Shown here piece after piece: positions 810 through 25,800 of a stretch of DNA of 49,938 bases. The notes below the pieces were generated by a model. That model ran no database searches, was not told where the DNA came from, and was given only the letters and a program-made list of their open reading frames with translations. The stretch is from the IMG/VR virus record IMGVR_UViG_3300047301_000123, positions 1-49,938 of that record. One strand, given 5' to 3'. Made by a program: the position numbers and the translations under genes. Source of the stretch: a virus (Duplodnaviria > Caudoviricetes). The stretch's first letter is position 1. Each line of letters starts with the position of its first letter.

Positions 810-1382
810 ATGGCTAAAATTATAATTCGTGATGCGCGTTTGGCTTTCCCAGATTTGTTTGTACCGGTGCAGTTCCAAAACGCAGGCCCGTTCAGTTACC
901 GAGCTACCTTTCTTATCGATACTGAAAATCCTGCAAAAAAAGAAATCGATGCTGCCCTTAAAGACGTAGCTAAAGAAAAGTGGGGGGCTAAAGCGGCCGC
1001 TATCCTGCCGACTATCCTGCCTATGTCCAACAAATGCTGTTTCGCAGATGGAAACACCAAGGCATATAACGGCTACGAAGGCAACTGGGCGCTGACTGCA
1101 ACTCGCGGCCAGGATTCCGGAAGACCGGTTACGGTTGGTCGCGGCGGGGCGAAAGACCCTATTACTGCCGAAGACGCTAAATTCTTCGCAGGCTGCTATG
1201 TAAACGCAGTCGTTGAGTTGTGGGCACAGGACAACAGCTTCGGTAAAGGTTTACGTGCAACGCTTAATAGCGTCCAGTTTGTCAGAGTCGGCGAATCCTT
1301 CGGCGGAGCTGCCCCAGCTACAGCGGCGGGCATAGACGATTTGGGTTACGACGAAGACGAAGACGAAGACGATATGTATTAA
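810..1382 (+). CDS. DUF2815 family single-stranded DNA-binding protein
   Basis: RLAFPDLF, FFAGCYVNA, NSFGKGLRATLNSVQF motifs; acidic C-terminal tail; AGGA RBS. Confidence 0.88.
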   Translation: MAKIIIRDARLAFPDLFVPVQFQNAGPFSYRATFLIDTENPAKKEIDAALKDVAKEKWGAKAAAILPTILPMSNKCCFADGNTKAYNGYEGNWALTATRGQDSGRPVTVGRGGAKDPITAEDAKFFAGCYVNAVVELWAQDNSFGKGLRATLNSVQFVRVGESFGGAAPATAAGIDDLGYDEDEDEDDMY

Positions 1383-1390
1383 GCTTTCGG

Positions 1391-1413
1391 ACCCCGCTTC
1401 GGCGGGGTTTTTT
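1391..1413 (+). terminator. Rho-independent terminator
   Basis: ACCCCGC-TTCG-GCGGGGT hairpin followed by a T run. Confidence 0.9.
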
Positions 1414-1428
1414 CAAAAACCAGGAACT

Positions 1429-1448
1429 GTATGAGCGACTCGTTATAC
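1429..1448 (-). mobile_element. attC-like half site (one L box, 5-nt spacer, R box)
   Basis: GTATGAGC-gactc-GTTATAC has the same spacing as GCTTGAAC-gcata-GTTATAC at 1779-1798; the partner arm is missing. Confidence 0.55.
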
Positions 1449-1461
1449 GGGGAGATTAAAA

Positions 1462-1707
1462 ATGACTGAACAAAACAAAGCAACCGACGCAGAATTCCTT
1501 TTACAGCCCCATGGCGGCTTGAACCAAGGGTTATACATGAAAACTAAAACAGGTACAGAACACAAAAGCTCTTCCGTAAGTGAAATGGCCGCAACATTAA
1601 AACATGCCGACCCTGACAGCACAGTAACCAACGAAAACGGTAAGCCTGTCTCTGCATATCTTGACGCTCTTAATAGAAGAATTACAATAGTTGAAGATGA
1701 TGTATAA
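1462..1707 (+). CDS. Hypothetical protein in cassette-like unit 1
   Basis: GGGAG RBS; the TAA stop lies inside the GTATAAC box of the attC-like site. Confidence 0.65.
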   Translation: MTEQNKATDAEFLLQPHGGLNQGLYMKTKTGTEHKSSSVSEMAATLKHADPDSTVTNENGKPVSAYLDALNRRITIVEDDV

Positions 1708-1798
1708 CGCCGTGTTAAGCGGAAAGCCGCCACACACGGAACTTTAATAAACTGAAATGCTCGGTGGGCGGCTTTTCCGCTTGAACGCATAGTTATAC
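1702..1798 (-). mobile_element. Complete integron attC-like recombination site (97 bp)
   Basis: Minus strand reads GTATAAC-tatgc-GTTCAAGC...GCTTAAC-acggc-GTTATAC: R''-5 nt-L'' (8 nt)...L' (7 nt)-5 nt-R' (GTTRRRY-like); long imperfect palindrome with unpaired G and T on the + strand. Confidence 0.8.
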
Positions 1799-1809
1799 TA
1801 AGGAACACA

Positions 1810-1998
1810 ATGAATTTATTTAAAGCCAAAGACGGAAGTTTAATTAACCCAAGCAATGTGAATTTAGTTCGTCGTTACAAAGAGGAGGGGTCTTGGGTAG
1901 TTAAATTTGACTTCGTATTCTCAGCCAGGGAAATTATTTTTAATTCCGAAAAGGATGCAAATGCAGAAATGGAAAGATTCGAGGCGCACTGTGCATAA
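1810..1998 (+). CDS. Hypothetical protein in cassette-like unit 2
   Basis: AAGGA RBS right after GTTATAC; the TAA stop lies inside a GCATAAC box. Confidence 0.7.
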   Translation: MNLFKAKDGSLINPSNVNLVRRYKEEGSWVVKFDFVFSAREIIFNSEKDANAEMERFEAHCA

Positions 1999-2040
1999 CG
2001 CAAAGTAGACGCCTGAAACGGTGCCTATCTTAACAACCAC

Positions 2041-2060
2041 CCCCGTTTAGGCGGGGTTTT
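2041..2060 (+). terminator. Rho-independent terminator
   Basis: CCCCGT-TTAG-GCGGGG hairpin plus TTTT. Confidence 0.75.
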
Positions 2061-2087
2061 CTAAAATATAAAGCCAGGAACGCACCG

Positions 2088-2258
2088 ATGATTAAATACG
2101 TAAAGTTTTGTGTAGCTGCTTTAGTCGCAGCAATGTTATCTGCGGCTATACCCCCCATGGTTTCAGCGCCTTCAGATGTATGGGCGATGTGTGGTTTTGC
2201 TTTACTTTCGACCACCCCCGCGATTTCATATTACTTAGCGAGATGGATACTAAAATGA
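2088..2258 (+). CDS. Small membrane protein (56 aa, two hydrophobic segments), not in the ORF track
   Basis: Translated by hand: MIKYVKFCVAALVAAMLSAAIPPMVSAPSDVWAMCGFALLSTTPAISYYLARWILK; AGGA RBS; ATGA overlap with the SPFH gene. Confidence 0.7.
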   Translation: MIKYVKFCVAALVAAMLSAAIPPMVSAPSDVWAMCGFALLSTTPAISYYLARWILK

Positions 2259-3097
2259 AAAAAATATTTTTGTTGCTTTTGTTATTAACGGGCTGCGGCA
2301 CCTACGTCGAACCAGGTTACGTAGGGGTTAAAGTATCGCTCATTGGAGGCGATAAAGGTGTCGATACCCTGGAAGTCGGGCCAGGTAGATACTGGATTGG
2401 ATGGAATGAAAATCTTTATACCTTCCCGACCTTTTCCCAAAGCATGGTTTGGGCCAAGGATAAAGCGGAAGGTTCGCTAAACGACGATTCAATGACCTTT
2501 CAGACCAAAGAAGGCATAGAGGTAAATACCGACATCGGTGTTACTTACGCCATCGACCCGAAAAAAGTCAGTATTATTTTTCAGAAATACCGTAAAGGGA
2601 TAGAGGAGATAACCTCTGTATACCTACGCAGTATGGTTCGGGATGCAATGATCACCGAAGGCTCTTCCAGAAACATGGAAACAGTTTATGGAGCAGGAAA
2701 AGCTGATTTTATAGCGGCAGTTCAAGCTAGAGTCATAGCCCAGACCGAAGAAATAGGCATTGTCGTCGAAAAGATTTACCTGGTTGGAGGGTTAAGACTC
2801 CCACCGGTTGTTACTGACGCGATAAACGCTAAAATAGGCGCAACGCAAAAGACCATTCAGCGAGAAAACGAGGTAGCGCAATCTAAAGCCGAGGCCGATA
2901 AAGCCGTGGCCGAGGCTAAAGGTAGAGCCGATTCTATGTTATTGGAAGCCGAGGCCGAAGCTAAAGCTATTGAGATAAAAGGTGAAGCGCTAAGCAAGAA
3001 CCCAAGACTGGTGGATTTAAGTGCCGTCGAAAAATGGGATGGTAAATTGCCGCAATACATGCTCGGAAACGGTACGCCGTTTATTGATCTTAAGTGA
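2255..3097 (+). CDS. SPFH/band 7 (prohibitin-like) lipoprotein
   Basis: Lipobox MKKIFLLLLLLTGC, VEPGYVGVKV, EAE-rich coiled coil, KWDGKLP; start reassigned to ATG 2255. Confidence 0.9.
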   Translation: MKKIFLLLLLLTGCGTYVEPGYVGVKVSLIGGDKGVDTLEVGPGRYWIGWNENLYTFPTFSQSMVWAKDKAEGSLNDDSMTFQTKEGIEVNTDIGVTYAIDPKKVSIIFQKYRKGIEEITSVYLRSMVRDAMITEGSSRNMETVYGAGKADFIAAVQARVIAQTEEIGIVVEKIYLVGGLRLPPVVTDAINAKIGATQKTIQRENEVAQSKAEADKAVAEAKGRADSMLLEAEAEAKAIEIKGEALSKNPRLVDLSAVEKWDGKLPQYMLGNGTPFIDLK

Positions 3098-3104
3098 TCA
3101 AACT

Positions 3105-3126
3105 CCCCGCTTCGGCGGGGTTTTTT
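3105..3126 (+). terminator. Rho-independent terminator
   Basis: CCCCGC-TTCG-GCGGGG plus T6; same hairpin as at 1392. Confidence 0.9.
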
Positions 3127-3145
3127 ACTTTCTGGGAGACAGAAA

Positions 3146-3358
3146 ATGCTTATTAAAAAAGAATTACACAGAACGACTTCTGCTATCAGGCCCATTATGA
3201 ACGGGGTGTTGGTAGAGCGCAAAGAAGGAACTATGTACAAAAATAAAGTCTGGGATGCAGTTTACGAAGAGCTAAGTAATTTGATAGAAGTCATGGACGC
3301 AGCAAAAACCAGCAGTAAACCGTTCCGGCTAACAATAATCATAGAGGAAGCGGAGTGA
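3146..3358 (+). CDS. Hypothetical protein
   Basis: GGGAG RBS; GTGA overlap with the polymerase gene. Confidence 0.65.
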   Translation: MLIKKELHRTTSAIRPIMNGVLVERKEGTMYKNKVWDAVYEELSNLIEVMDAAKTSSKPFRLTIIIEEAE

Positions 3359-5493
3359 AAAACCTCTACTTCGACACCGAAACATTCTCCGAGTGCGATC
3401 TGAAAACTGCGGGCACCCACGTTTATTCCAGGCATCCTTCAACGGACATTCAGCTCTTTTCTTATGGCCTGGAAGAAGGCGAGGTAAAGGTCTGGGACAG
3501 AACCAAAAACAAAAAGATGCCCAAAGACTTAGCCCTGTATTTTGAAAACCCAGAGATACTGTTTTGGGCGCACAATGTTTGGTTTGATAGAAATTTAATC
3601 GAAGGTGTACTGGGTAGTTATCTACCGTTAAACCGATACCGCTGTTCGATGGCAAAAGCTTTAGCGCATGGACTCCCTGCCGGTTTAGGCGATTTAGGTG
3701 CAGCCCTGGGTATCAGGGAGGATTTTCAGAAGGTCAAAGATGGGCGCCGGTTAGTGCTTAAATTTTGTAAAAAAGATAAGAACGGCAACATTAACGACCC
3801 CGCTGATCACCCAGAAGATTGGGCAAAGTACGTAGAATACTGCCGTATCGACACGATTTCTATGCGGGAAATAATCAAGAAGACCCCGAATTGGAATTAC
3901 CCGAGACAACAAGTAGAGCTCGATTACTGGTTGATGGATCAGGAAATAAACTCCAGAGGCATGCCCATTGATCTGGAGCTGGCTAATGCCGCTATGGAAG
4001 CGATAGCCATAGCCCAGACAGACCTCGCAGCTAAGACCAAGAAGATGACCAATGGCGAGGTTAATACCGCCGGTCAGCGCGATGAAATGATCAAACACAT
4101 CGCTAAAATATATGGTTATTACCTGCCAAACATGCAGAAAGGCACGATAGGTCGCATGGTCGATGACCCGCAAACTCCAGAACCGTTACGAGAGCTATTG
4201 GAAGTGCGTTTAAGCACGGCCACAACCGCCACGGCGAAATATAAACCTTTGGCCGCTATGACCAGTTTGGACGGGAGATTACGTGGTACCATACAATATG
4301 CCGGTGCGTCAAGAACTTTAAGAGATTCAGGACGTGGAGGATACCAATGTCAAAATCTCGCACGTCCTACCATGGAACACGACGATATTCTAGGCGGCAT
4401 AGACTCACTGAAGAACGGTACGGCAGCGATGGTAGGCTTCGACATTATGAAGCTATCATCGAGCGCTTTACGCTATGCGATCTGTGCCCCCGAAGGTAAA
4501 AAGTTCGTCATTTCAGACCTATCAAACATCGAAGGCCGCGCCCTGGCATACCTGGCAGGAGAAACCTGGAAGGTAAAAGCCTTCGCTGACTTCGACGCCG
4601 GTATCGGCCACGACCTATATAAAGTGGCCTATGCAAAAGCTTTCGGCGTTGATCCTGCAGACGTCACGAAGGAACAGCGGAACGCCGTTGGGAAAGTCTT
4701 AGAATTATCAATGGGTTACGCGGGAGGCGTAGGTGCGCTGTTAGTGTTCCTCAATTCTTTCGGGGTCGATCTGGAAGAGTTAGCGGAAACGGTAACCCCC
4801 TTAGTACCTCCGAAAATCCTTGCCGAAGCAGACAGCTTTTACGAGTGGATGGTCGGCATGGAAGTAACCGAAGCGAAGAAAAAAGCACTCGACCAAATGG
4901 TCGATTGGGAAACTATTTATGAAGCAAAACGTACCCACAAACTGCCTAAGCACGTACACATGGCGCTGGAAAGCCTAAAACGCCTTTGGCGCAAAGAACA
5001 CCCTGAAACAGTAGGTTTCTGGGCGGATGCCGAAGCCGCTGTTAGGAGTGCAATTTTCAGTCCAAAAGAGGACTTTTCTTTTGGTAACGGGTGTTCGGCT
5101 CGTAAAACAGGTAACTGGGTTCGCATTACGCTACCCAGCGGCCACGTACTGCCCTATCCAGGCATGAAAGTTAATAAGGACGGTAAGCTTTCCTTCTTAG
5201 GAATCAATCAGTTCACAAAGAAGTGGGGACAGATACAAACGACGGGAGGGAAGTTGGTGGAAAATGCCACCCAAGCTTTCAGCCGCGACATCTTTAAACA
5301 CGGGCAACTACTCGCTATGCAGGAAGGTTACAAGGTTGTTATGCCGCTTCATGATGAGCTAGTTTGTGAAGTACCCGACACGGAAGACTATACCCATCAA
5401 CGACTTGAAGAGCTAATGGCTACGGTACCAAGTTGGGCACCGGGTTTCCCCCTTGCCGCAGCGGGGTTCACGGCCTACAGGTACAGGAAGTAG
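3355..5493 (+). CDS. Family A DNA polymerase (APSE/Bcep-type) with 3'-5' exonuclease
   Basis: Exo I DTET, AHNVWFDR, motif A SDLSNIEGR, motif B KVLELSMGY, motif C LHDELV, ENATQA. Confidence 0.95.
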   Translation: MKNLYFDTETFSECDLKTAGTHVYSRHPSTDIQLFSYGLEEGEVKVWDRTKNKKMPKDLALYFENPEILFWAHNVWFDRNLIEGVLGSYLPLNRYRCSMAKALAHGLPAGLGDLGAALGIREDFQKVKDGRRLVLKFCKKDKNGNINDPADHPEDWAKYVEYCRIDTISMREIIKKTPNWNYPRQQVELDYWLMDQEINSRGMPIDLELANAAMEAIAIAQTDLAAKTKKMTNGEVNTAGQRDEMIKHIAKIYGYYLPNMQKGTIGRMVDDPQTPEPLRELLEVRLSTATTATAKYKPLAAMTSLDGRLRGTIQYAGASRTLRDSGRGGYQCQNLARPTMEHDDILGGIDSLKNGTAAMVGFDIMKLSSSALRYAICAPEGKKFVISDLSNIEGRALAYLAGETWKVKAFADFDAGIGHDLYKVAYAKAFGVDPADVTKEQRNAVGKVLELSMGYAGGVGALLVFLNSFGVDLEELAETVTPLVPPKILAEADSFYEWMVGMEVTEAKKKALDQMVDWETIYEAKRTHKLPKHVHMALESLKRLWRKEHPETVGFWADAEAAVRSAIFSPKEDFSFGNGCSARKTGNWVRITLPSGHVLPYPGMKVNKDGKLSFLGINQFTKKWGQIQTTGGKLVENATQAFSRDIFKHGQLLAMQEGYKVVMPLHDELVCEVPDTEDYTHQRLEELMATVPSWAPGFPLAAAGFTAYRYRK

Positions 5494-5494
5494 A

Positions 5495-6034
5495 ATGTCA
5501 AAACCAATAGCTATGCCGACGCAAGAGTACCTAAAGATTTGTTTTGAGTATGATAAGGGGGCAGGATGTTTAAAATGGAAGGGTAGACCGGTTTCGCATT
5601 TTAGCAACATAAAAGCGGCACATAGGCTAAACAGCAGAGACACAGGTAAAACAATAAACGGGATAGCGGTAAATGGCTATCTAAGGGTTAGGTTAGATGG
5701 CAAACTGTATTACGTACACAGAATAATATAGAAATTAGTGACGGGATCAGACCCCGTTAGTCTAATAGACCACATAGACGGTGTTAGGATTAACAACGCC
5801 TGGGACAATCTTAGGCAAGCCGCCAACGAAGAAAACGGGAGAAACAGGGGTGCATCAAGAAATAATACTTCAGGGTACAAAGGGGTTAGCTTTGACAAAA
5901 GGGCAGGTAGGTACGAAGCATACGTAAACATAGGGGGCCGAAAAAATAGCTTAGGTCTGTTTGAAACTGCGGAATTGGCTAACACCTCCAGACAAAAAGA
6001 GATACTTCTGTTGGGGCTACCTTTTATGCGATAG
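5495..6034 (+). pseudogene. HNH/AP2-type homing endonuclease interrupted by an in-frame TAG (5729-5731)
   Basis: The two track ORFs share one frame: YYVHRII*KLVTGSDP...IDHIDGVRINNAWDNLR...NTSGYKGV; the stop sits where Trp is conserved. Confidence 0.85.
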
Positions 6035-6449: not shown

Positions 6450-6673
6450 TGCCTGCCGTACTAAACCAGTCCGGTAACTGCTGCCTTTATGTTAAAGGGC
6501 CGAAGGATAACTCCCGGCACTACGTTTCAGAAAAGGCCCATAGCTTCCGCCGCAAAGAGATAACTAGCGACGAGGCATCAATCTTAGCTTCACTAAACGG
6601 CTTCTACTTTGAGACAGATGTTCTGGCTATCTTGGAAGACAAAACCGAAAATTATATGGAGACATCGTTATGA
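6449..6673 (+). CDS. Hypothetical protein
   Basis: Overlapping start and stop with both neighbours. Confidence 0.6.
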
Positions 6674-7530
6674 AACAATACCTAAACCTGCTGCAAGCTA
6701 TACGTGAAACTGGAGCCGAAAAAGGTGATCGCACCGGCACCGGAACCCTTTCAATATTTGGGCACCAGATGCGTTTCGATCTTCGGGAAGGTTTCCCGAT
6801 ACTGACCACAAAAAAGATGTTCTTAAAAGGCGTAATAACCGAACTTTTGTGGTTTATAAAAGGCGACACCAACACAAAGTTTTTGGAAGAAAACGGCGTC
6901 CATTTTTGGAAAGAGTGGGCAGACGATTATGGTGATCTGGGGCCTATTTACGGAAAGCAGTTACGACACCCATATTTTGTTCCTGACATGATAGCCGGGG
7001 AGTCGGTACTTCGACGTACCGATCAACTTAGTGAAGTCATCCGAGGCATTAAAACTAACCCAAACAGCCGCCGACATGTTGTCACTATGTGGCGCCCAGA
7101 GGATTTACCCTCCGAAAACCTATCTCCACAGCAAAATGTTGCCGCAGGGAAAATGGCTTTAGCTACTTGTCACGGCACGGTAATTCAGTTCTATGTATCC
7201 AATAGGGAGCTGTCTTGCTCAACGTACCAACGTAGCGCAGATGCTTTTCTGGGGTTGCCCGTAAACATAGCCTCTTACGCCTTATTAACGCACATGATAG
7301 CCCAACAATGCGGGTTGAATGTAGGGGAGCTTATCTACACGACCGGTGACACTCACCTTTATCTAAACCATTTGGAGCAGGTACAAGAGCAACTAACCCG
7401 ATCCCCGAAAGATTTACCGCCCCTGGTTCTTAACCGTAAACCAGAGTCAATTTTTGACTATAAAATAGAAGACTTCGGGCTTATTGGTTATGCTCCGTTG
7501 GCAGCTATAAAAGCAGAGGTTTCGGTATGA
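6670..7530 (+). CDS. thyA: Thymidylate synthase
   Basis: [23 protein letters not shown], catalytic [22 protein letters not shown]. Confidence 0.97.
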
Positions 7531-7727
7531 TAGTCCCAAGAATCGGCAGCGTTTGGAAGCACCGAACTACAGGAAATGTCTACGAGGTGTACGACCACAC
7601 TAATACTGAATCTACCCGCCCTGAAGAGTACCCACTACGCATCTCATACAAACGTCTGGGGGACGGAACTACCTGGTCAAGAAGTGCATCTTTATGGCAT
7701 GCCTCTTACATAGAGCTTCCCGAGTGA
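7527..7727 (+). CDS. DUF1653-like small protein
   Basis: [12 protein letters not shown]...ISYK...WSR pattern. Confidence 0.6.
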
Positions 7728-8260
7728 AAATAAACGTAATAATGGCCTGTGACCTGAATGGGGTCATAGGCATAAACGGTAAGTTACCCTGGAACATTCC
7801 TGAAGACCTTAAGCGCTTCAAAGAGCTTACCATGAACCATGCCGTAATAATGGGGCGTAAAACCTGGGAGTCTTTACCGGTAAAACCACTATCAGGGAGA
7901 GAGAATATTGTTGTGTGCTCTAGTTGTAACTACGGAATTATGTCTGGCGACAATTTCGTTGCCAGAGCTTCCCTCGCTTCTGCGCTCAGTGCGGCGAAAG
8001 CACTAGGGAAAAAAGAAGCCTTCGTGATCGGCGGATCGAGATTATTTGAAGAAGCCATGCTTATCGCTGATACCGTCTACGTAACTGTGGCCAACCATGA
8101 AGTCGATGTACAGCCTGGCGACGAGGCAGTATGTATCAACGAACCCGCATTAAGTAGCTGGAAGATGGTGAACTGCGTCCACCTTATCGACCACACCTTT
8201 TATGTTTTAAACCGCCGTCAGCCGGTCGCTGACACCATCAAAGAGAAATACCATGACTAA
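7724..8260 (+). CDS. folA: Dihydrofolate reductase
   Basis: GVIGINGKLPWNIPEDLKRFK, VIMGRKTWESL, VIGG; GTG start overlaps the upstream TGA. Confidence 0.95.
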   Translation: MKINVIMACDLNGVIGINGKLPWNIPEDLKRFKELTMNHAVIMGRKTWESLPVKPLSGRENIVVCSSCNYGIMSGDNFVARASLASALSAAKALGKKEAFVIGGSRLFEEAMLIADTVYVTVANHEVDVQPGDEAVCINEPALSSWKMVNCVHLIDHTFYVLNRRQPVADTIKEKYHD

Positions 8261-8525
8261 AAGTGAATTAATCGCGGCTATGTCGGCTAAAACTGACCTG
8301 CCAAAAACAAAAATATCGGCCGTTATTGATGCCCTTGTTGCCACAGTAACCGAAAGTCTGATCGTAGGCAATGAAGTTGCCATTAACGGCCTGGGTACCT
8401 TCAAAGTTAAACTACGTGCTGAACGCGAAGGTCGTAATCCCGCTACCGGGGACGCAATAACCATTGCTGCCTGTACAGTAGCAAGTTTCCAGGTATCTGC
8501 GACCTTGAAAAAAGCGGTAAAATAG
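8253..8525 (+). CDS. HU/IHF family DNA-binding protein
   Basis: MTKSELI, GLGTF, RAEREGRNPATG. Confidence 0.95.
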   Translation: MTKSELIAAMSAKTDLPKTKISAVIDALVATVTESLIVGNEVAINGLGTFKVKLRAEREGRNPATGDAITIAACTVASFQVSATLKKAVK

Positions 8526-8589
8526 TTCTAAAATTATTCTGGGTTTCTACGGGAGCCCAGAATTGTTTTGGACAGTGATGCGGCTCTCA

Positions 8590-8614
8590 GCCCCCGGAAA
8601 CGGGGGTCTTTTTT
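8590..8614 (+). terminator. Rho-independent terminator
   Basis: CCCCCG-GAAA-CGGGGG plus T-rich tail; a second hairpin (TTCTGGGTTTC...GAGCCCAGAA) lies just upstream at about 8537-8561. Confidence 0.85.
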
Positions 8615-8626
8615 AAGGTAAACACT

Positions 8627-8839
8627 ATGTATAATCTATCGAAAGAAGAACTGTTTTCTATCATGGGGAAGAAAAAACGCCTTTTAGTAGAGGACTCAAT
8701 AACTTTAGCTGAAGAAGTGGCACGTCTTCAGTCAGCACTTAACCGCACTAAAGCAATCAACCGACAGTTATTGGATGAAATAGATATGCTGGTGCAAAAA
8801 CTGCTGGATATAAACTCGGTCGCCTATTCTGAGGAATAG
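8627..8839 (+). CDS. Hypothetical coiled-coil protein
   Basis: AAGG RBS; ORF track. Confidence 0.6.
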   Translation: MYNLSKEELFSIMGKKKRLLVEDSITLAEEVARLQSALNRTKAINRQLLDEIDMLVQKLLDINSVAYSEE

Positions 8840-8870
8840 GCCCCGCAATCAAAACACCCTGGAGTAAAAA

Positions 8871-9050
8871 ATGAAAGCTCAAAAAATAACAGTGACAATA
8901 ACAGTAGAGTGCCTACACAGCAGCGTTGTACCGAGTTTAGTCGGTATCGCTATGGAAAACTTCGAGAACGAATTTGAGACAGGTACTTTGGCCGCTGAAG
9001 ATGGGGACAAAGTTACCTGGGAAATAGAAAGGAAAGAGATGGTTTTTTAG
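8871..9050 (+). CDS. Hypothetical protein (59 aa), not in the ORF track
   Basis: GGAG RBS; MKAQKITVTITVECLHSS...EMVF. Confidence 0.65.
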   Translation: MKAQKITVTITVECLHSSVVPSLVGIAMENFENEFETGTLAAEDGDKVTWEIERKEMVF

Positions 9051-9056
9051 TACAAA

Positions 9057-9341
9057 ATGTACCCTAAAGAGTCGATAATAGAGGCTTACTTCGTCAGGCA
9101 GATGAAGAAAGCCTTTCCACAAGCCCAAGTACACAAGTATGAGATACGACGCGGGGAACCGGATCGTATCTGCCTTTTACCTGGAGGCATAGCTTTGTTT
9201 GTGGAGTTAAAACGCCCAGGGGCTAAACCAAGACCTGAGCAAATAAGAGCACTGGATAGGTTGGATCGGTTAGGTTTTACCGCAGTGTGGCTTTCAACCA
9301 AAAAAGAAGTAGATTTATTCGTCGTGGAGCTAATTATATGA
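9057..9341 (+). CDS. VRR-NUC domain nuclease
   Basis: ESIIE, GEPDRI, FVELKRPG, PRPEQ motifs. Confidence 0.9.
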   Translation: MYPKESIIEAYFVRQMKKAFPQAQVHKYEIRRGEPDRICLLPGGIALFVELKRPGAKPRPEQIRALDRLDRLGFTAVWLSTKKEVDLFVVELII

Positions 9342-9571
9342 AAAACCCAGCTATCAACCCGCCAAATTTACTGAATGGCTTCACCGAGCAGTTACGGGAT
9401 AATTGCTCTTTAGGGGAAGGAGGCATGGCTAAAGTAATACTGAGGGATACCACCCACGAGTACGTTAAGTATGTGTTTGGGTTTGGATTCGAAACAAAAG
9501 GCAGGGTGTTATCATGGGGTAATGCCGGAATAAGCAAAAACGGGTATAGAAAAGATATGGCGGAATTATGA
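9338..9571 (+). CDS. Hypothetical protein, paralog A (MKNPA...)
   Basis: ATGA overlap with VRR-NUC; similar to the next ORF. Confidence 0.65.
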   Translation: MKNPAINPPNLLNGFTEQLRDNCSLGEGGMAKVILRDTTHEYVKYVFGFGFETKGRVLSWGNAGISKNGYRKDMAEL

Positions 9572-9801
9572 AAAACCCAGCTACGCAAATAACACCGCAA
9601 ATAAATAACTTCACCGAAAGGCTGAAGGAAATTAGCAAGGATAAACCGGTTTTATGTCAACTACGGGTAGGATTTTCGGAAGTGATGTATGTCCCAGAAG
9701 AAGACGGCTTACCGGAAGGCTTCCGTTTTAACGATAAATCCTGGTCCATCGACGGTTTAAGTCGTCAACGACCAGCACAAGATATTGTGAGAATAGTATG
9801 A
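9568..9801 (+). CDS. Hypothetical protein, paralog B (MKNPA...)
   Basis: ATGA overlaps on both sides; similar to the previous ORF. Confidence 0.65.
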   Translation: MKNPATQITPQINNFTERLKEISKDKPVLCQLRVGFSEVMYVPEEDGLPEGFRFNDKSWSIDGLSRQRPAQDIVRIV

Positions 9802-10226
9802 ACCCTTTAAAATTCATACCTGTAGCACAAGCATTGGCAAGCCTATCTAAAGACCCTTCAACCAAAGTTGGGGCGATGGCCTTCGATGCTAAAGGAAACG
9901 TCCTGAGCGTCGGGTTTAACGGCTTCCCTCGCGGCGTGGAAGATACTAAAGAGCGATACGAAAATCGTGCTGAAAAATTGCGTTTGGTCAGCCATGCGGA
10001 AGCAAATGTGATCGCACAGGCCGCTCGCGTCGGCGCTAAACTGGAAGGCGCCAGCCTGCTAGTCACCGCCTTATACCCCTGCTCCACTTGCGCTAAGTTG
10101 ATCATCCAGTCGGGCATAAAGAAGGTTTATGCCCCCGTAACGGAGAATGACAGCAAATGGTTCGAAGAGCGCGAGGTAGCGATGCTGCTGTTTAGTGAAG
10201 CAGAGGTAGAAGTCCATGAATACTAA
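9798..10226 (+). CDS. dCMP deaminase
   Basis: SKDPSTKVGA, GFNGFPRG, HAEAN, PCSTC zinc motifs. Confidence 0.95.
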   Translation: MNPLKFIPVAQALASLSKDPSTKVGAMAFDAKGNVLSVGFNGFPRGVEDTKERYENRAEKLRLVSHAEANVIAQAARVGAKLEGASLLVTALYPCSTCAKLIIQSGIKKVYAPVTENDSKWFEEREVAMLLFSEAEVEVHEY

Positions 10227-15437: not shown

Positions 15438-15511
15438 GCGGGGTTGGCCGAGCGGTTAGGCTTCGGATTTCCAATCCGACCACAGGGTTTCGACTACCCT
15501 ACCCCGCTCCA
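15438..15511 (+). tRNA. tRNA-Gly (anticodon TCC) with encoded CCA
   Basis: Acceptor GCGGGGT/ACCCCGC, U73, CCA; D arm GCCG/AGGC; anticodon arm TCGGA-TTTCCAA-TCCGA; T arm AGGGT-TTCGACT-ACCCT. Confidence 0.95.
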
Positions 15512-17930: not shown

Positions 17931-18617
17931 TTAATCCAGATAGGCGATTGTAGCCTCCTTACAAAACCCGGAACGGACAATATCCTCGACGGAAAATTCG
18001 ACGACGTTGACGTTCGGAGAATCCCCCATTCGGCGTATCAACTCCGCTAAACCAGACTCCTGGTTAATAAACTTCTGTCCTAAATCCCCATCTACAATTA
18101 CCGTGGCGTTGTCGCCCACGCGAGTAATGAAATTTTTCATCTGTTTTCGGGTCGTATTTTCAGCCTCATCAAGCAGAATCCAACAATCTCTGAGTGTCCT
18201 ACCTTGCATATACGCAAAAGGGACCGCTTCGATCTTGCCGTGAGTTAGGCAGTATTCGGCGAAAGTTTTACCTAGCCGGTCATTGAACACTTCTACGTAA
18301 GGCACCAGGTAGGGGGATATTTTTTCAGCTACCGTTCCTGGCAGGAAACCCAGTTTTTCATCCGCTTCAACTAGCGGCCGGCAAATGTAAATCTTGTTTA
18401 TTCGCTTCTCACGCAACATATCGGCAGCTATCGCTGCAGCCAGGAAGGTCTTACCCGTACCAGGGGGCCCAATACCTATCGTGCAGACATACTTAAGCAT
18501 ACTGTTCATGTACTCTCGTTGCCTATCGTTTAAAGCACGAACCGGCTGTATGACCCTGATTTCTACTGGTTTTTCATACTCTGCTATGGGCTGTCTGCGT
18601 TCACGTTTCTTCGCCAT
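17931..18617 (-). CDS. phoH: PhoH family ATPase
   Basis: GPPGTGKT, RPLVEA.EKLGFLPG, YMQGRT, LLDEAEN, GDLGQ, DIVRS; TAAGGAG RBS before ATG 18617. Confidence 0.95.
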   Translation of the reverse strand: MAKKRERRQPIAEYEKPVEIRVIQPVRALNDRQREYMNSMLKYVCTIGIGPPGTGKTFLAAAIAADMLREKRINKIYICRPLVEADEKLGFLPGTVAEKISPYLVPYVEVFNDRLGKTFAEYCLTHGKIEAVPFAYMQGRTLRDCWILLDEAENTTRKQMKNFITRVGDNATVIVDGDLGQKFINQESGLAELIRRMGDSPNVNVVEFSVEDIVRSGFCKEATIAYLD

Positions 18618-18661
18618 TTGAAACTCCTTATTAAGTGAGGTTCGACTATAGCACATAGCAC

Positions 18662-18691
18662 TTGACACGTAGGTGTTTTTACCTATAAAAT
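18662..18691 (+). promoter_or_regulatory. Probable sigma70 promoter, divergent from phoH
   Basis: TTGACA followed by TATAAAAT at 16-18 nt. Confidence 0.55.
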
Positions 18692-18715
18692 ACAACCTCA
18701 CTTTGGGAGAAGAAA

Positions 18716-18901
18716 ATGAAATGGCCACTGCTGTTATTCCCTAGCGTTAACCTACCGGTTATCGGCATGGACACCACCTTCCTGCCCGATGCCGACTGCG
18801 AAAATTGCAAGTATGGCGGGGAGTTCGAAGACCAACACTGTTATATGTTCGAAGACAAGCCGGGCGATAAGTGCGGCCAATTCAAAAAGGTGACCCCATG
18901 A
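18716..18901 (+). CDS. Cys-rich hypothetical protein
   Basis: GGGAG RBS; CxxC...C...C. Confidence 0.6.
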   Translation: MKWPLLLFPSVNLPVIGMDTTFLPDADCENCKYGGEFEDQHCYMFEDKPGDKCGQFKKVTP

Positions 18902-19827: not shown

Positions 19828-21660
19828 ATGAACGAACAAGAACTTCAAGCCTATTTAGGAGCAGCCAATGTCGCATACCGGGCCGGAACACCCACGCTAT
19901 CTGACAACGACTATGACGGCATGATGGAAGACGGCAGAGAGCTGTTCCCTGATAACCCGTGGTTTAACCAACAAGAGGTTGAGCCCGAGGCGGTGGCCGG
20001 CAAAACTGTGCCGCTGCCGGCCAGGATGTTGTCTACCAACAAAGCTTACTCGATCAAGGAAATTGAAAAGTGGGCAAACGATGTATTGGCGGTAGGCAGG
20101 CAGATGCGCATGGGGGAAAGTGAAGTCTTTTTTATGGTCACACCGAAGCTGGACGGCTTTGCCGCTTATGACGACGGTGAAAAACTTTACACTCGGGGTG
20201 ACGGCAGAAGCGGTACCGATATAAGCCGAGCAATCGACAATGGGTTGAGCGTAGACGGCAGAGGTAAAGGGCCGGGGGAAATAGTGGTCGATAAGTTTTA
20301 CTTCGAGCAACATCTGGCACACTTGTATGATAACTCCCGAAACATCATTGCTGGGGTTATCAAAGAGGGCGATCTCGACGTAGAAATCAAGGACGCAATT
20401 ATACACGGAGCCGTATGTTTTCAGCCTTTCGCCGGAATAGGTCTTGAACGACAAACAGTAACGAAAAACATCTTACTATTTGGCATTGAAACATTGTTTG
20501 ACACGATGCAACGTAATTGCATCTTTGATACCGACGGTCTGGTGATCGAAGCTATTCACCCAGCTATCAAAGAAGAGATGGGTGCCACAAACCATCATCA
20601 CCGCTGGCAGATTGCTTATAAGAAAAATACCGAGTACCACAACATTCGGGTTACCGGTCTGGTGTGGCAAACATCAAAAAATGGGCGACTGACACCGGTT
20701 GTGCAACTTGAACCCACCAAAGTATCGGGGGTAACAATCAGCAAGGCCACTGGGCATAACTACGGAAACGTAGTTAAGTCTGGTATAGAGCGTGGAGCGA
20801 TCGTCCGGGTATGTCGATCAGGCTTGGTTATCCCGTACATCGAGAGCGTTGTAAAAAGAGCGCCAATGGGCGCGTTATCCCCGGCGCAATGTTTAAGCTG
20901 CGGGGAAGATACTATAGTTGACGGTGATAATTTACTCTGCACTAATACCGAAACCTGCCCAGCGCAAATCGAGGGGGCGATTGAGTTTTTCTTTAAAACG
21001 CTGGGCAGCTGCGACGGGTTTGGTCCGAAAGTGATAGAAAAACTCGTAGGTGAAGGTGTTGACACCGTACTGGAAGTTTATAGGTGCGATGAATATATTT
21101 TTGAAGATCACGGTTTTAGAGAAAAAACAGCGTTAAATCTTGCAACCGAACTCGCCATTAGTCGTCAGCGCCCCACTGAAGATTGGCGATTCCTGGCCGC
21201 ATTCTCCATCCACAACGTCGGCAAGGGGGGTTGTGAGAAACTTCTCAAGCACCATAGGCTGGCTGATGTATTTAACTTAAAGATAGATGAAATTATGCGC
21301 ATTGATGGGTTTGCCGTAAAGACAGCCAGTAGCCTTGTTAATTCATTGGCAAACATCAAGCCTCAGTTCGATGCTTTGATGAAATTAGGGTTCAATCTCA
21401 CAGAGACTCCTATCGGCGTAACCGTTGTGGGCAACCTGTCGGGCAAGACCGTGGTATTCACAGGCTCAATGCAGAAAGGCGGGCGATCAGATATGGAAAA
21501 GCAGGCCAAGTTTCTTGGAGCTAAAGTCGGCAGCTCGGTCTCTTCTAAAACAGACTACTTAATCTGCGGTGCCGATGTCGGTGCCGCAAAAACCACAGCC
21601 GCTAAGAGGCATGGCGTGACTGTATTAACCGAAGATCAATATCTGGAGATGGCGGGATGA
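19828..21660 (+). CDS. ligA: NAD-dependent DNA ligase
   Basis: AYRAG...SDNDYD, MLS..K, KLDG, TRGDG, DGLVI, AYK, OB fold, C4 zinc finger, HhH repeats, BRCT (VVFTG...SVSSKTDYL). Confidence 0.93.
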   Translation: MNEQELQAYLGAANVAYRAGTPTLSDNDYDGMMEDGRELFPDNPWFNQQEVEPEAVAGKTVPLPARMLSTNKAYSIKEIEKWANDVLAVGRQMRMGESEVFFMVTPKLDGFAAYDDGEKLYTRGDGRSGTDISRAIDNGLSVDGRGKGPGEIVVDKFYFEQHLAHLYDNSRNIIAGVIKEGDLDVEIKDAIIHGAVCFQPFAGIGLERQTVTKNILLFGIETLFDTMQRNCIFDTDGLVIEAIHPAIKEEMGATNHHHRWQIAYKKNTEYHNIRVTGLVWQTSKNGRLTPVVQLEPTKVSGVTISKATGHNYGNVVKSGIERGAIVRVCRSGLVIPYIESVVKRAPMGALSPAQCLSCGEDTIVDGDNLLCTNTETCPAQIEGAIEFFFKTLGSCDGFGPKVIEKLVGEGVDTVLEVYRCDEYIFEDHGFREKTALNLATELAISRQRPTEDWRFLAAFSIHNVGKGGCEKLLKHHRLADVFNLKIDEIMRIDGFAVKTASSLVNSLANIKPQFDALMKLGFNLTETPIGVTVVGNLSGKTVVFTGSMQKGGRSDMEKQAKFLGAKVGSSVSSKTDYLICGADVGAAKTTAAKRHGVTVLTEDQYLEMAG

Positions 21661-22802: not shown

Positions 22803-25800
22803 TTACTCGTCGTCTTCCGAGGTACTGTAATCCGGCACGTAATCCGGCACATAGTAGCCTTTCGAACCGCGCTTTTTCTCTTCCCTCTTAGAAGCGGCAA
22901 TCGAGTTTGCTACATCGGTTGGCAATATAGGCTTTAGCGGGTACTTCACATTCCACTCCCGCCATTCCTCGCTAGGGATTTCCTCATGTTCCGTTTTTGC
23001 ATTAGCGATCCGGTGCAACAATACTGTCCTTGCCTCCTCAATATGCTTCTTATCGGCAAATGCATAGCCGCGATCATCATATTTGTTGGCCAAGTCCGAA
23101 CTTCCAATACCGAATATCTGCAAAAACACCTCGCCAGGACTCATATCTTTTAATTTGTCACCCTTGGTTCCTTCACGGATACTCGTCGCACCAGCAGCGG
23201 CAAACCGGGCTGATTTCAGCGGATCGCCCAGTGCTTTAGGTAGTAGTTGCTCCGCCGCCCGTTCAAATTCACCTTCGCCGGCTAACTTGGCACCTTCAAA
23301 AACTTTTTGCATTAACCCACCGGTCGGCCCGAACAACGAAACTAGAAGCTGAGTAGCTTGGTCACGACCTTCCAGTTCTTGTTTCCCCTCACGAAACTTG
23401 ATGTCCGCGATACCTAATCGGCCACCTAGATCAGCAGGAGTAACAGCATTGAAGAAACCTTTCGTCATTGCAGTAGCAAACTCTTCTCCGCCTAAATCGA
23501 ATAACCACATTCGGGCTTCTTTTTTAGTATCCCAAGGATCGTCGTCATCGGTTAATGCGGCCCCAATCATGTTCAGGAGCATGACGGTAGCGCCCATGAG
23601 CGGCATTCCGAAAGCCCCTGCTACCGTAAACTGCGTTATAGCCAGCCCAATTAACCGACTACCCGCTTCTTTGGCTTCAGCCATCACTGCATCGCGTTCA
23701 GCGCCGGCTGGCATTTTCTTCCACCCGTTGAACGTATCCTGGAAAGCCGAACCCCAGGCATAGTACATAAGGTGCGGGTACTTACCAAATTGCAGCGCGA
23801 TACCTGCTGGCCAGCCACGGAATATCCGAGCTGCATTCTCGGCGTTATAGTCTCCGTGACCGATATGGGTGGCTTTCTCCGCGTACTGCTGAGCTTCTTC
23901 CAAGGTACTGTCACGCATCCCACCGCGACCATCCGAAACCTTACTATCACGCATCAATCGGTAGGCCGCTAACAGAGTAACTTCGCGGTTAACACGCTCC
24001 CCGTGGTGGAACATCCAGCCCATGCTCTTGTTTATCTCTTGTAGCTTGCCGCCCTCAATGTCGCCACGCTGACTTAAACCGATAACATCCTGCATCTGGG
24101 TTCGGGCTGTTTCCCCCTGACTCTTGATGTATTGCATAAATTTCACATCAGACTCTGTTTCTTTGTAAGCTGCCGTGCCTCGGGTGAGCGTTCTCAATCT
24201 TCGTTCCAAGACTACTGAAATAGAAGCGTTACCGTCCTCATCTACGGAATCTGGATCGTTGCGCTTCGCCAGTTTTATGGCCGCCATGAATTCACCGTAA
24301 GTCTTATTGAAAGCTGAAACCGTTTTCCCGAAACCGAACTTGCTGGCCACTACTGGCATGGCGACAATAGGTGTCTGCAGTAAGTTCATCAACCCTGTGG
24401 ATACGCCGTACCCTAACATCCAGATAAAACTGGCCTGGCGTATGTCGGAAGCGATCTTATCCAGGTCTGAACTTTGGGTATTGACCATGGCATCGAAGGA
24501 TTTTTTAATCTCATCCGCCACTTCGCCCGCCGCTATCTGTAACTTTTGATCCTTGAGCATCCGTGAATGGTCGATGGTCGTGTTTAACTTTACCGAAAAC
24601 CGTTCCAGAGCATCGTAAGCATCAACTTCAGGTAGGTGTCCAAACTTTCTCCGTAAAGTAAGGGCTTCTTTCCAGATAGCGTTATCTGGATCGGCGGCCT
24701 GCTCGGCCTCTAAGTGCCCTGGCGCGGTCAGGGTAGCCCAGTCATCCTGAAGCATTTCTGCCGCCTCGACCTGTATTTCTGCTTCCCGACGGCGGAAGTT
24801 TCCGGTAATGTTTCCGGCTGCATCGTGCTCATCATCCATAGCCATCGTCACGGTATCCCGCATAGCTTTAGCAGCTTCAGCCATGTTTCGGCCTTCCGTC
24901 ATGTTACCCAACTGCGAGGCGCCGTGGTGAATATGGAATGTGAACGACCGGATAGCATCCTTGTCAAAACCCAGTACGCCTTTACGGTGTTGAGCGCTGT
25001 GCCTGGCCGAAACATCGGGCAAAGACTGCAAGTACATTTGGTAGATAGCATCCTGCAGGGCGCGGGCTTCGGCATCGTCGGAGACATTTTCGTGAATCTT
25101 GTCACGTACATCGAGCATGAAAGCATCGGTAGCCGCCAAATCGTCATGGATGCTCTGCATTTTCTTTCCGGATTTTATGTTCTTACCCCCGTCGGCTCGA
25201 AAAACGGCTTCCGCAGCTTTCATCTTTTTCAACGAGTCGAAGGATGAAAACACCGGTTGTCCTGCGCTATTCTTACCGTAAAACCAGTAGTCACCGAACC
25301 GTTGTAGCGGCGTGTAGTACCACTCAAGAGAACCGGCTTCCATGTTCTTTCTCAACTCTGAAATCATCTGGCTTCGGATTCGACCATCATCGATGGCTCT
25401 TTCTATCTGCATTTCAATAGCGTGTAGCCTAGCATTAGCGAGTGCATTTAGGGTTTCGTTTGAGTCTTTATAGACTCCTTGGGCTTCCGCCGTCAGTGCG
25501 GCGTACTTAGCTTGTAGCTTGGGAAGTGCAGTTTTACGAGTGCCGTTTTCAGGCTTATGTCCGAGCCTGGTTTGGATAGCTTCCTCGTTATTCAACATAT
25601 TCAGGAACACATCCGCGTCAACCCTATCCAAGAAATAGGCTTGTTTATAGAAATCTCCAGTAGTAACAGAGTTTTGGTAGCCCATACCTAACGTAAGTTT
25701 AGCCTTACTGGTGGCAGTGAACTTAGCCTGCGAGTGTACGCGGAATAGACCCTTCTCCTTCGTAACCCCACTCCAGGCCTGTGATGCATCGACATCCGGC

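What the first reader, a model, noticed from the sequence alone, without database searches (positions are those of the whole stretch)
1429..2011. Integron-style attC cassette array inside a phage replication module, with ORFs inverted and no integrase in view
Seen: 1702-1798 is a 97-bp imperfect palindrome. On the minus strand it reads GTATAAC-N5-GTTCAAGC...GCTTAAC-N5-GTTATAC. Aligning the arms (GTT-AAGCGGAAA-GCCGCC vs GGCGGCTTTTCCGCTTGAAC) leaves one unpaired G and one unpaired T on the + strand. Matching half-sites lie at 1429-1448 (GTATGAGC-N5-GTTATAC) and 1993-2011 (GCATAAC-N5-GTAGACG). Each small ORF starts 11-13 nt after a GTTATAC box and has its TAA inside a TAAC box. Established: this R''/L''/L'/R' spacing with extrahelical G and T is the substrate architecture of integron integrase IntI. 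In normal cassettes the ORF is co-oriented with the top strand; here both ORFs run the opposite way. Inference: the phage carries excisable single-gene cassettes shuffled by a host IntI or an unidentified ssDNA-hairpin recombinase, which would be a phage accessory-gene capture system. The block lies between two terminators.
Basis: partly seen in the sequence, partly recalled or inferred. Interest (0 to 1): 0.9.

Follow-up and report, generated by a model that had tools for sequence, protein, structure and literature searches.

The report
Phage integron array with flipped genes
A freshwater phage carries a bacterial-type gene-capture site (attI) and a gene cassette whose gene faces the opposite way to those in bacterial integrons; the same flipped layout recurs in dozens of other phage contigs, so phages likely use integron integrase, here probably the host's, to swap their own small accessory genes.

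Summary
Confirmed and extended. 1702-1798 is an integron attC: a model built only from host attC sites scores it 40.6 bits, and it is 88/97 identical to an attC in a complete Methylobacter integron. The block is attI, one intact 291-bp cassette and two eroded ones; a third half-site (1517-1536) was missed. No integrase lies in this 54%-complete contig or in a complete relative, which has the empty site. Gene inversion is systematic: ribosome-binding site plus ATG follows attC on the bottom strand at 81 and on the top at 2 of 198 viral sites, against 5 and 46 of 136 chromosomal sites. Gene swaps between phages break at the R boxes. Some temperate phages encode their own IntI beside such arrays. 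Phage attC arrays are published (Qi 2023); I found no paper on reversed polarity. This scan noted reversed arrays before in at least 34 other genomes. Recombination itself is untested.

The parts
1993..2031 (-). attI-type site (R box 1993-1999, 5-nt spacer, L box, then a short inverted repeat); predicted crossover between 1998 and 1999
   Evidence: Top window hit of an HMM from 19 chromosomal sites lying 95-170 nt upstream of intI: 11.4 bits, E 0.027, best of 20 shuffles 7.6. The same motif closes inverted arrays in other phages; the first 23 nt are identical in L382.
1810..1998 (+). Cassette A gene, 62 aa, no known family; its stop codon lies in the attI R box
   Evidence: 92% aa identical to a cassette gene in the inverted array of a P2-like prophage, L051; homologues at 79% and 76%; no Pfam/PHROG hit; Atlas model pTM 0.78, no family named.
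1702..1798 (-). Complete 97-bp attC; top strand = minus, recombining (bottom) strand = plus = coding strand; predicted crossover between 1707 and 1708
   Evidence: 88/97 identical to L125 1722-1817.
1708..1998 (.). Cassette A, 291 bp (attC body in front of its gene), the only intact unit
   Evidence: Inferred from the two R boxes and the IntI cleavage rule (PMC5027507 passages).
1537..1707 (+). Cassette B gene, 56 aa, unknown; also readable as an 81-aa frame from 1462
   Evidence: 53% identical over 51 aa to an ORF in L254 that also follows a degenerate attC of the 97-bp family; no other homologue.
1510..1536 (-). Truncated attC of cassette B: one arm only, 8 nt shorter than family members; cannot form the hairpin
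   Evidence: comparison with L136, L143, L151.
1429..1509 (.). Remnant C: attC half-site 1429-1448, then a ribosome-binding site and gene start (1462) fused to cassette B
   Evidence: Direct reading; remnant status is inference.
1392..1433 (+). Left terminator-like hairpin followed by CCAGGAAC and ATG; imperfect direct repeat of 2041-2090
   Evidence: (D1, 86% over 22 nt).
2041..2090 (+). Right terminator-like hairpin, CCAGGAAC and start of the 56-aa membrane gene
810..1382 (+). ssDNA-binding protein gene (left neighbour); abuts the membrane gene in the empty-site relative
   Evidence: PF10991 / phrog_112.

Best explanation
The block is an integrase-less integron platform, an attI plus cassettes whose genes lie on the attC bottom strand, that is likely loaded and unloaded by an integron integrase supplied in trans, most likely by a Methylobacter-type host. 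Shown: the site anatomy, the reversed polarity across many phages, swap points at R boxes, and the empty site in a relative. Inferred mechanism: the + strand folds at 1702-1798 when single-stranded, IntI cuts at AA|C, and each unit (attC body, ribosome-binding site, gene, stop inside the next R box) would enter at attI, the downstream end of the row; older units are pushed upstream and erode. Inferred reason for the reversal: in temperate phages with their own intI, the fixed intI-attI-attC geometry points the attC top strand against the early operon, so only bottom-strand genes would be read. The platform itself probably arrived as one piece by non-IntI recombination near the duplicated terminator.
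For: attC. attI. An attI-type pattern hit 31 viral loci: 23 of 31 have attC upstream in this geometry, 41 sites upstream vs 5 downstream (all in L380), RBS+ATG bottom 26, top 0, no IntI hit in any locus (4 had under 150 nt downstream). Polarity with patterns taken from canonical host sites: bottom 81, top 2 of 198 viral sites vs 5 and 46 of 136 chromosomal sites, Fisher p 1e-27. Bottom-strand ORFs are real genes: 27 of 89 hit PHROGs, 10 as DNA methyltransferases. Swap points among 276 site records: same upstream gene, different downstream, 6 of 6 change site after the AAC; same downstream gene, 6 of 10 keep the site. Contigs from other genomes in freshwater runs diverge from the window at 1697-1706 and 1990-1996, and one ORF1-like contig runs on into a different attC at 1710. 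A host integron (L125; IntI 383 bits, cut-off 265) holds both polarities. Phage IntI beside reversed arrays: L257 429 bits; 33 upstream sites in 32 loci, bottom 19, top 0. IntI1 recombines 5 of 6 phage attC sites (PMC9892861). Empty site and no PF00589 in complete relative G353.
Against: No joint from 1707 to 1999 (clean excision) in five runs, though contigs drop rare variants. Only one intact cassette, and the left end is eroded. Four of 10 'same downstream gene' pairs, and the ORF2 pair window/L051 (interior 89%, both flanking bodies 55-56%), have different upstream attC bodies, which bottom-strand exchange alone does not explain; top-strand crossover is known but usually rarer. Three of the 6 'site kept' pairs come from one trio of loci. 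The stop-in-box count separates polarity poorly in the viral set (bottom 76, top 54), and 18 of 135 cassettes were called canonical and 66 unclear. Some contigs also occur. 46% of this genome is missing. No promoter signal above chance, and the row sits behind a terminator-like hairpin. The host is inferred from site similarity only.
Confidence: 0.66

Rival explanations
1. Inert fossil: an attI-plus-cassette fragment was copied once from another phage or prophage as a moron and has only decayed since; the sites are real but no longer used in this lineage.
For: Empty sites in G353 and in one depth-2 contig joining 1413 to 2083, with junctions away from GTT boxes. Two of three units are eroded. 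No excision joint was seen.
Against: The attI and the attC next to it are intact (0 box mismatches, 88/97 to a host site) while distal sites are eroded, the gradient expected with turnover at attI. attI without intI recurs in 31 viral loci with differing cargo.
Confidence: 0.22
2. The array is served by the phage's own recombinase (an IntI or a short Xer-type enzyme) encoded in the unassembled part of the genome.
For: The record is 54% complete. Other phages encode IntI beside reversed arrays. Earlier scan notes (unchecked) describe short Xer-type enzymes beside such arrays in Bacteroidota phages.
Against: intI normally starts about 110-135 nt from this attI type, and here a terminator and a membrane gene follow. 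Complete relative G353 has no PF00589 match. 20 of 26 viral records picked for these attC sites have none, and 0 of 5 tested pass TIGR02249 (the sixth, G023, was not tested).
Confidence: 0.08
3. The palindrome is an RNA element (terminator, processing or stability hairpin) between early genes, and the integron likeness is incidental.
For: It lies between co-transcribed genes; attC hairpins have been discussed as weak terminators (PMC8876359 passage).
Against: No Rfam hit, no T run after the stem, near identity to an attC in a complete integron, an attI at the expected position, and gene swaps at R boxes. A secondary RNA role is not excluded.
Confidence: 0.04

Closest known systems
Phage-borne CALINs and integrons (Qi et al. 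2023, PMC9892861; main text and part 1 of 2 of the supplement read, figures and Dryad file not seen)
   Same: attC sites in phage genomes without integrase; recombined by IntI1; cargo includes orphan DNA methyltransferases.
   Different: The text does not remark on ORF polarity relative to attC strands or on attI without intI in lytic-type phages. My check of three of their phages: TJE1 canonical; MW202573 and PH101 reversed; P12002L not checked.
Sedentary chromosomal integrons of the family of G028 (Methylobacter MAG)
   Same: Same attC families (up to about 93% identity) and same attI motif.
   Different: They have intI, and their cassette genes are on the top strand (69 canonical, 4 reversed, 32 unclear of 105). 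The phage block lacks intI and has reversed, shorter genes (median 93 vs 158 aa).
Inverted-integrase integrons (Cury 2016, PMC4889954; PMC13323075; passages only)
   Same: Cassette genes and intI are read in the same direction.
   Different: There intI and attC lie on the same strand. In the IntI-bearing phages here intI and attC lie on opposite strands as usual, and only the genes are reversed.
Cassettes inserted backwards by top-strand recombination (Nivina 2016, PMC5027507; passages)
   Same: Gives a gene opposite to the array direction.
   Different: That inverts the whole cassette, gene and attC together. Here all sites share one orientation and the genes are reversed relative to their own attC.

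Membership tests
Integron attC site | R''/R' and L''/L' inverted boxes with 5-6 nt spacers | tested here: met
   0 mismatches in both box pairs, spacers of 5 nt
Integron attC site | Extrahelical G and T on the bottom strand, on the arm opposite the cleaved AAC | tested here: met
   + strand fold and arm pairing; positions comparable to G16 and T23/T24
Integron attC site | Covariance-model hit | tested here: met
   Own model from 23 host sites with hand-set structure: 40.6 bits, E 1e-7, next best 13.5. IntegronFinder's own model was not available.
Integron attC site | Recombination by IntI with bottom-strand preference | not testable with these tools
   Indirect only: breakpoints
Complete integron | intI next to attI | tested here: not met
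   No PF00589 in the window record or in 59 ORFs; record 54% complete, but the place next to attI is occupied by other genes
Complete integron | attI at one end of the array | tested here: met
Complete integron | Cassette genes on the attC top strand, read from Pc at attI | tested here: not met
   Both ORFs are on the bottom strand; promoter scan at chance level
CALIN | Two or more attC sites on one strand without integrase | tested here: not met
   One complete attC plus two half-sites; relatives carry multi-site arrays
Inverted-integrase integron | [quoted passage not shown] | tested here: not met
   In IntI-bearing phage loci the upstream sites are top = minus with intI on plus, bar one weak call
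Intrinsic terminator or known structured RNA | Hairpin followed by a U run, or Rfam match | tested here: not met

The most novel reading that the evidence does not exclude
Phages run their own reversed-polarity integron network. Temperate phages carry a dedicated IntI clade in the early operon, lytic-type phages keep only attI and borrow the enzyme, and the cassettes are made from phage genes (methyltransferases, RNA ligase, small unknowns). Because they face away from Pc, reversed cassettes can be parked silently in host chromosomal integrons (as in L125) and picked up again, making the host's integron a gene library for its phages and phages a birthplace of cassettes.
Probability: 0.4. Interest if true: 0.92.

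Novelty: new variant of a known kind. Interest (0 to 1): 0.74.

Why it matters
Integrons are treated as bacterial tools, lately as stores of anti-phage genes. A reversed cassette class concentrated in phages, with attI sites and in some phages a full IntI, would mean that phages use the same machinery to shuffle accessory and counter-defence genes such as orphan methyltransferases, with swaps at exact gene borders. It offers a testable source of phage genome mosaicism and a handle on how cassettes are made, an open question by my recollection. Pipelines that look for the gene on the top strand before attC would mis-assign these cassettes. This locus is a small, eroded example, but its sites match a cultivable host group, so the test is simple.

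Tried and rejected
Rfam: only a tRNA. blastn of the block against cultured phages: terminator-level matches only; the closest cultured polymerases are 41-45% identical. SSB relatives in IMG/VR were distant (at most 49%) and had no array. SSB not found in 301 genomes of the order of G028, so the host is not confirmed by a prophage. The block's DNA matched only the attC in 2 of 301 of those genomes, plus 7 terminator-level hits. The first covariance model with automatic structure had 5 pairs and was discarded. No cassette interior was found in opposite polarity between host and phage among 281 units, so direct flipping of host cassettes is not shown. PHROG hit rate does not separate the cargo sets (27 of 89 vs 13 of 64, p 0.19); DNA methyltransferases do (10 of 89 vs 0 of 64, p 0.005). 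IntI tree: quick method only; 18 of 20 viral rows form one group (SH-aLRT 98), but they were sampled by likeness to L257 and compared only with one host family plus one other genome, so a phage-specific clade is not established. Atlas gave no function for either ORF. No RNA holder listed. The origin of the 730-nt record behind P0003 remains unknown. Literature searches found no paper on reversed-ORF cassettes or attI-only arrays in phages; subscription journals are largely not covered. Passages in PMC11551772, PMC8876359 and PMC8618304 said nothing on it. Scan look-ups by place and by host words returned nothing.

Full report
Setting. The window is a whole virus record of 49,938 bases, linear and about 54% complete. 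It is a podophage-like genome with exonuclease, SSB, PolA, helicase, thyA/dfr and a 4169-aa polyvalent virion protein; identical or near-identical DNA is in freshwater metagenomes. The finding lies between the SSB gene (810-1382) and a 56-aa membrane gene (2088). No tyrosine recombinase is found in the record.

The observation. The 97-bp site is real and far from chance (z -5.0; 0 equal sites in 30 shuffled windows). Its boxes pair perfectly with an unpaired G and T on the + strand, so + is the attC bottom strand and also the coding strand of both ORFs. A covariance model built from 23 host chromosomal attC sites, with a hand-set structure and leaving out the closest family member, hits 1702-1798 on minus at 40.6 bits, next best 13.5. 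The site is 88/97 identical to an attC in a Methylobacter MAG contig (L125) that carries an integron integrase above the TIGR02249 cut-off and ten detected attC sites.

Two corrections to the anatomy. First, 1993-2031 is an attI. I fetched the DNA beside 39 IntI genes, picked by hand (favouring long contigs) from the matches in 73 of 121 genomes of the family of G028. Nineteen of 39 have an RYYYAAC 95-170 nt upstream of intI, and an HMM of these puts its best window hit at 1993-2031 (11.4 bits, E 0.027; best of 20 shuffles 7.6). The score is modest, but the place and strand are those that integron geometry predicts. Second, a half-site at 1517-1536 precedes ATG 1537. It is one arm of a 97-bp-family attC with an 8-nt deletion, and the L254 homologue of this ORF also follows a degenerate site of that family. 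The block therefore reads: attI, intact cassette A (1708-1998), cassette B with a broken attC, remnant C.

The reversal is a rule in phages. With patterns like the window's site, viral loci gave 29 reversed, 3 canonical and 15 unclear cassettes (after removing L051, L124, L126 and L131 from the printed totals). The host stretches gave 4 reversed, 69 canonical and 32 unclear (L125 removed). To remove the bias, I scanned IMG/VR with the two commonest motifs of canonical host sites: 75 of 107 loci had sites, cassettes were 51 reversed, 18 canonical and 66 unclear, and RBS+ATG followed the site on the bottom strand at 81 and the top at 2 of 198 sites, against 5 and 46 of 136 in chromosomes. The stop-in-box count was less clean (76 vs 54), and some contigs overlap the first set. 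The reversed ORFs are real: 27 of 89 match PHROGs, ten as DNA methyltransferases, others as RNA ligase or PAPS reductase. An attI-type pattern found 31 further viral loci, 23 with attC upstream in the same geometry and none with an IntI hit. Of three published phage CALINs that I checked, TJE1 is canonical and MW202573 and PH101 are reversed.

Evidence of exchange. ORF2 sits at 92% aa identity in the reversed array of an unrelated P2-like prophage (L051). Among 276 site records, pairs that share the upstream gene but not the downstream one always change site after the AAC (6 of 6). Pairs that share the downstream gene keep the site from the AAC onward in 6 of 10; three of these six come from one trio of loci. 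This is the unit predicted by bottom-strand cleavage in R' (PMC5027507). The other four, and the window/L051 pair, have different attC bodies; in three of the four identity begins at the far GTT box, which suggests top-strand crossovers (inference) and is not fully explained. In lake contigs, other genomes diverge from the window at 1697-1706 and 1990-1996, and one ORF1-like contig enters a different attC at 1710; no clean excision joint was listed.

The enzyme. None of five tested tyrosine recombinases in array-bearing viral records is an IntI, and 20 of 26 records have none. One contig, L257, has reversed cassettes, then an attI-like site, then a 369-aa IntI at 429 bits. It led to 32 viral loci; about 18, by eye, share the attI-like motif just before intI, and 33 upstream sites give RBS+ATG on the bottom strand 19 times and on the top never. 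In three of five loci printed, intI is followed by a phage integrase-like gene, in at least two of them via a small excisionase-like gene (labels recalled, not tested). This suggests why polarity is reversed: intI sits at the end of an early operon, so genes must lie on the bottom strand to be read (inference). For the window's phage, the complete syntenic relative G353 (87.8 kb, 64-74% nucleotide identity in seven segments) has SSB abutting the membrane gene, no attC hit and no PF00589 hit; one depth-2 contig also skips 1414-2082. So the platform is an insertion, flanked by an imperfect repeat of terminator plus CCAGGAAC, and the enzyme most likely comes in trans. L125 shows the bridge: attI-proximal cassettes canonical, distal ones mostly reversed, including the near-copy of the window's attC. 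That contig is a MAG fragment, so its chromosomal status is likely but not proven.

Comparison and verdict. attC sites in phages and their use by IntI1 are published (PMC9892861; figures and Dryad file not seen, and the figures may show strand arrows). Known integron types are regular and inverted-integrase; neither has genes reversed against their own attC as a rule. Ten searches found no paper on it. This scan has noted reversed phage arrays in at least 34 other genomes (read after my own tests; unchecked notes, not used as support); they tie Bacteroidota cases to a short Xer-type enzyme, whereas here the sites and enzymes are ordinary IntI-type. The block works like an integron but is not a complete integron or a strict CALIN: a new variant of a known kind. 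Recombination, expression, cargo function and host are inferred, not shown.

Noticed in passing
L257 2224-4558 (same contig as L337); L326-L357: Temperate phages with a full integron integrase and attI-like site at the end of a reversed cassette row, upstream of excisionase- and integrase-like genes.
   Followed up: partly
L125 677-7048: Methylobacter MAG integron with both canonical and reversed cassettes in one array.
   Followed up: partly
window 22803-35312 (-): 4169-aa polyvalent virion protein with InPase, PBECR5, ART-PolyVal, LPD23, LPD39 and DarB-like regions.
   Followed up: no
window 5453-6034: HNH endonuclease gene in two consecutive ORFs matching adjacent halves of phrog_99; probably broken.
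   Followed up: no
window 17931-18728 (-): PhoH-like gene on the minus strand amid plus-strand early genes.
   Followed up: no
window 6670-10226, 15438-15508, 19828-21660: thyA, dfr, HU-like protein, dCMP deaminase, one tRNA and an NAD-dependent ligase.
   Followed up: no
window 1350-1373: GACGAA repeats in the acidic SSB tail; contigs of runs X1 and X6 lack 6 nt here.
   Followed up: no
L380: attI-like site with attC sites on both sides (7 upstream, 5 downstream), the only such case in 31 loci.
   Followed up: no
L051 4869-9150: P2-like prophage with at least seven reversed-type attC sites spread over 4 kb after the primase, ending in an attI like the window's.
   Followed up: partly
L175 (MW202573) 2069-3760: More attC-like boxes between early genes than my scanner called, all with the bottom strand coding.
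   Followed up: partly
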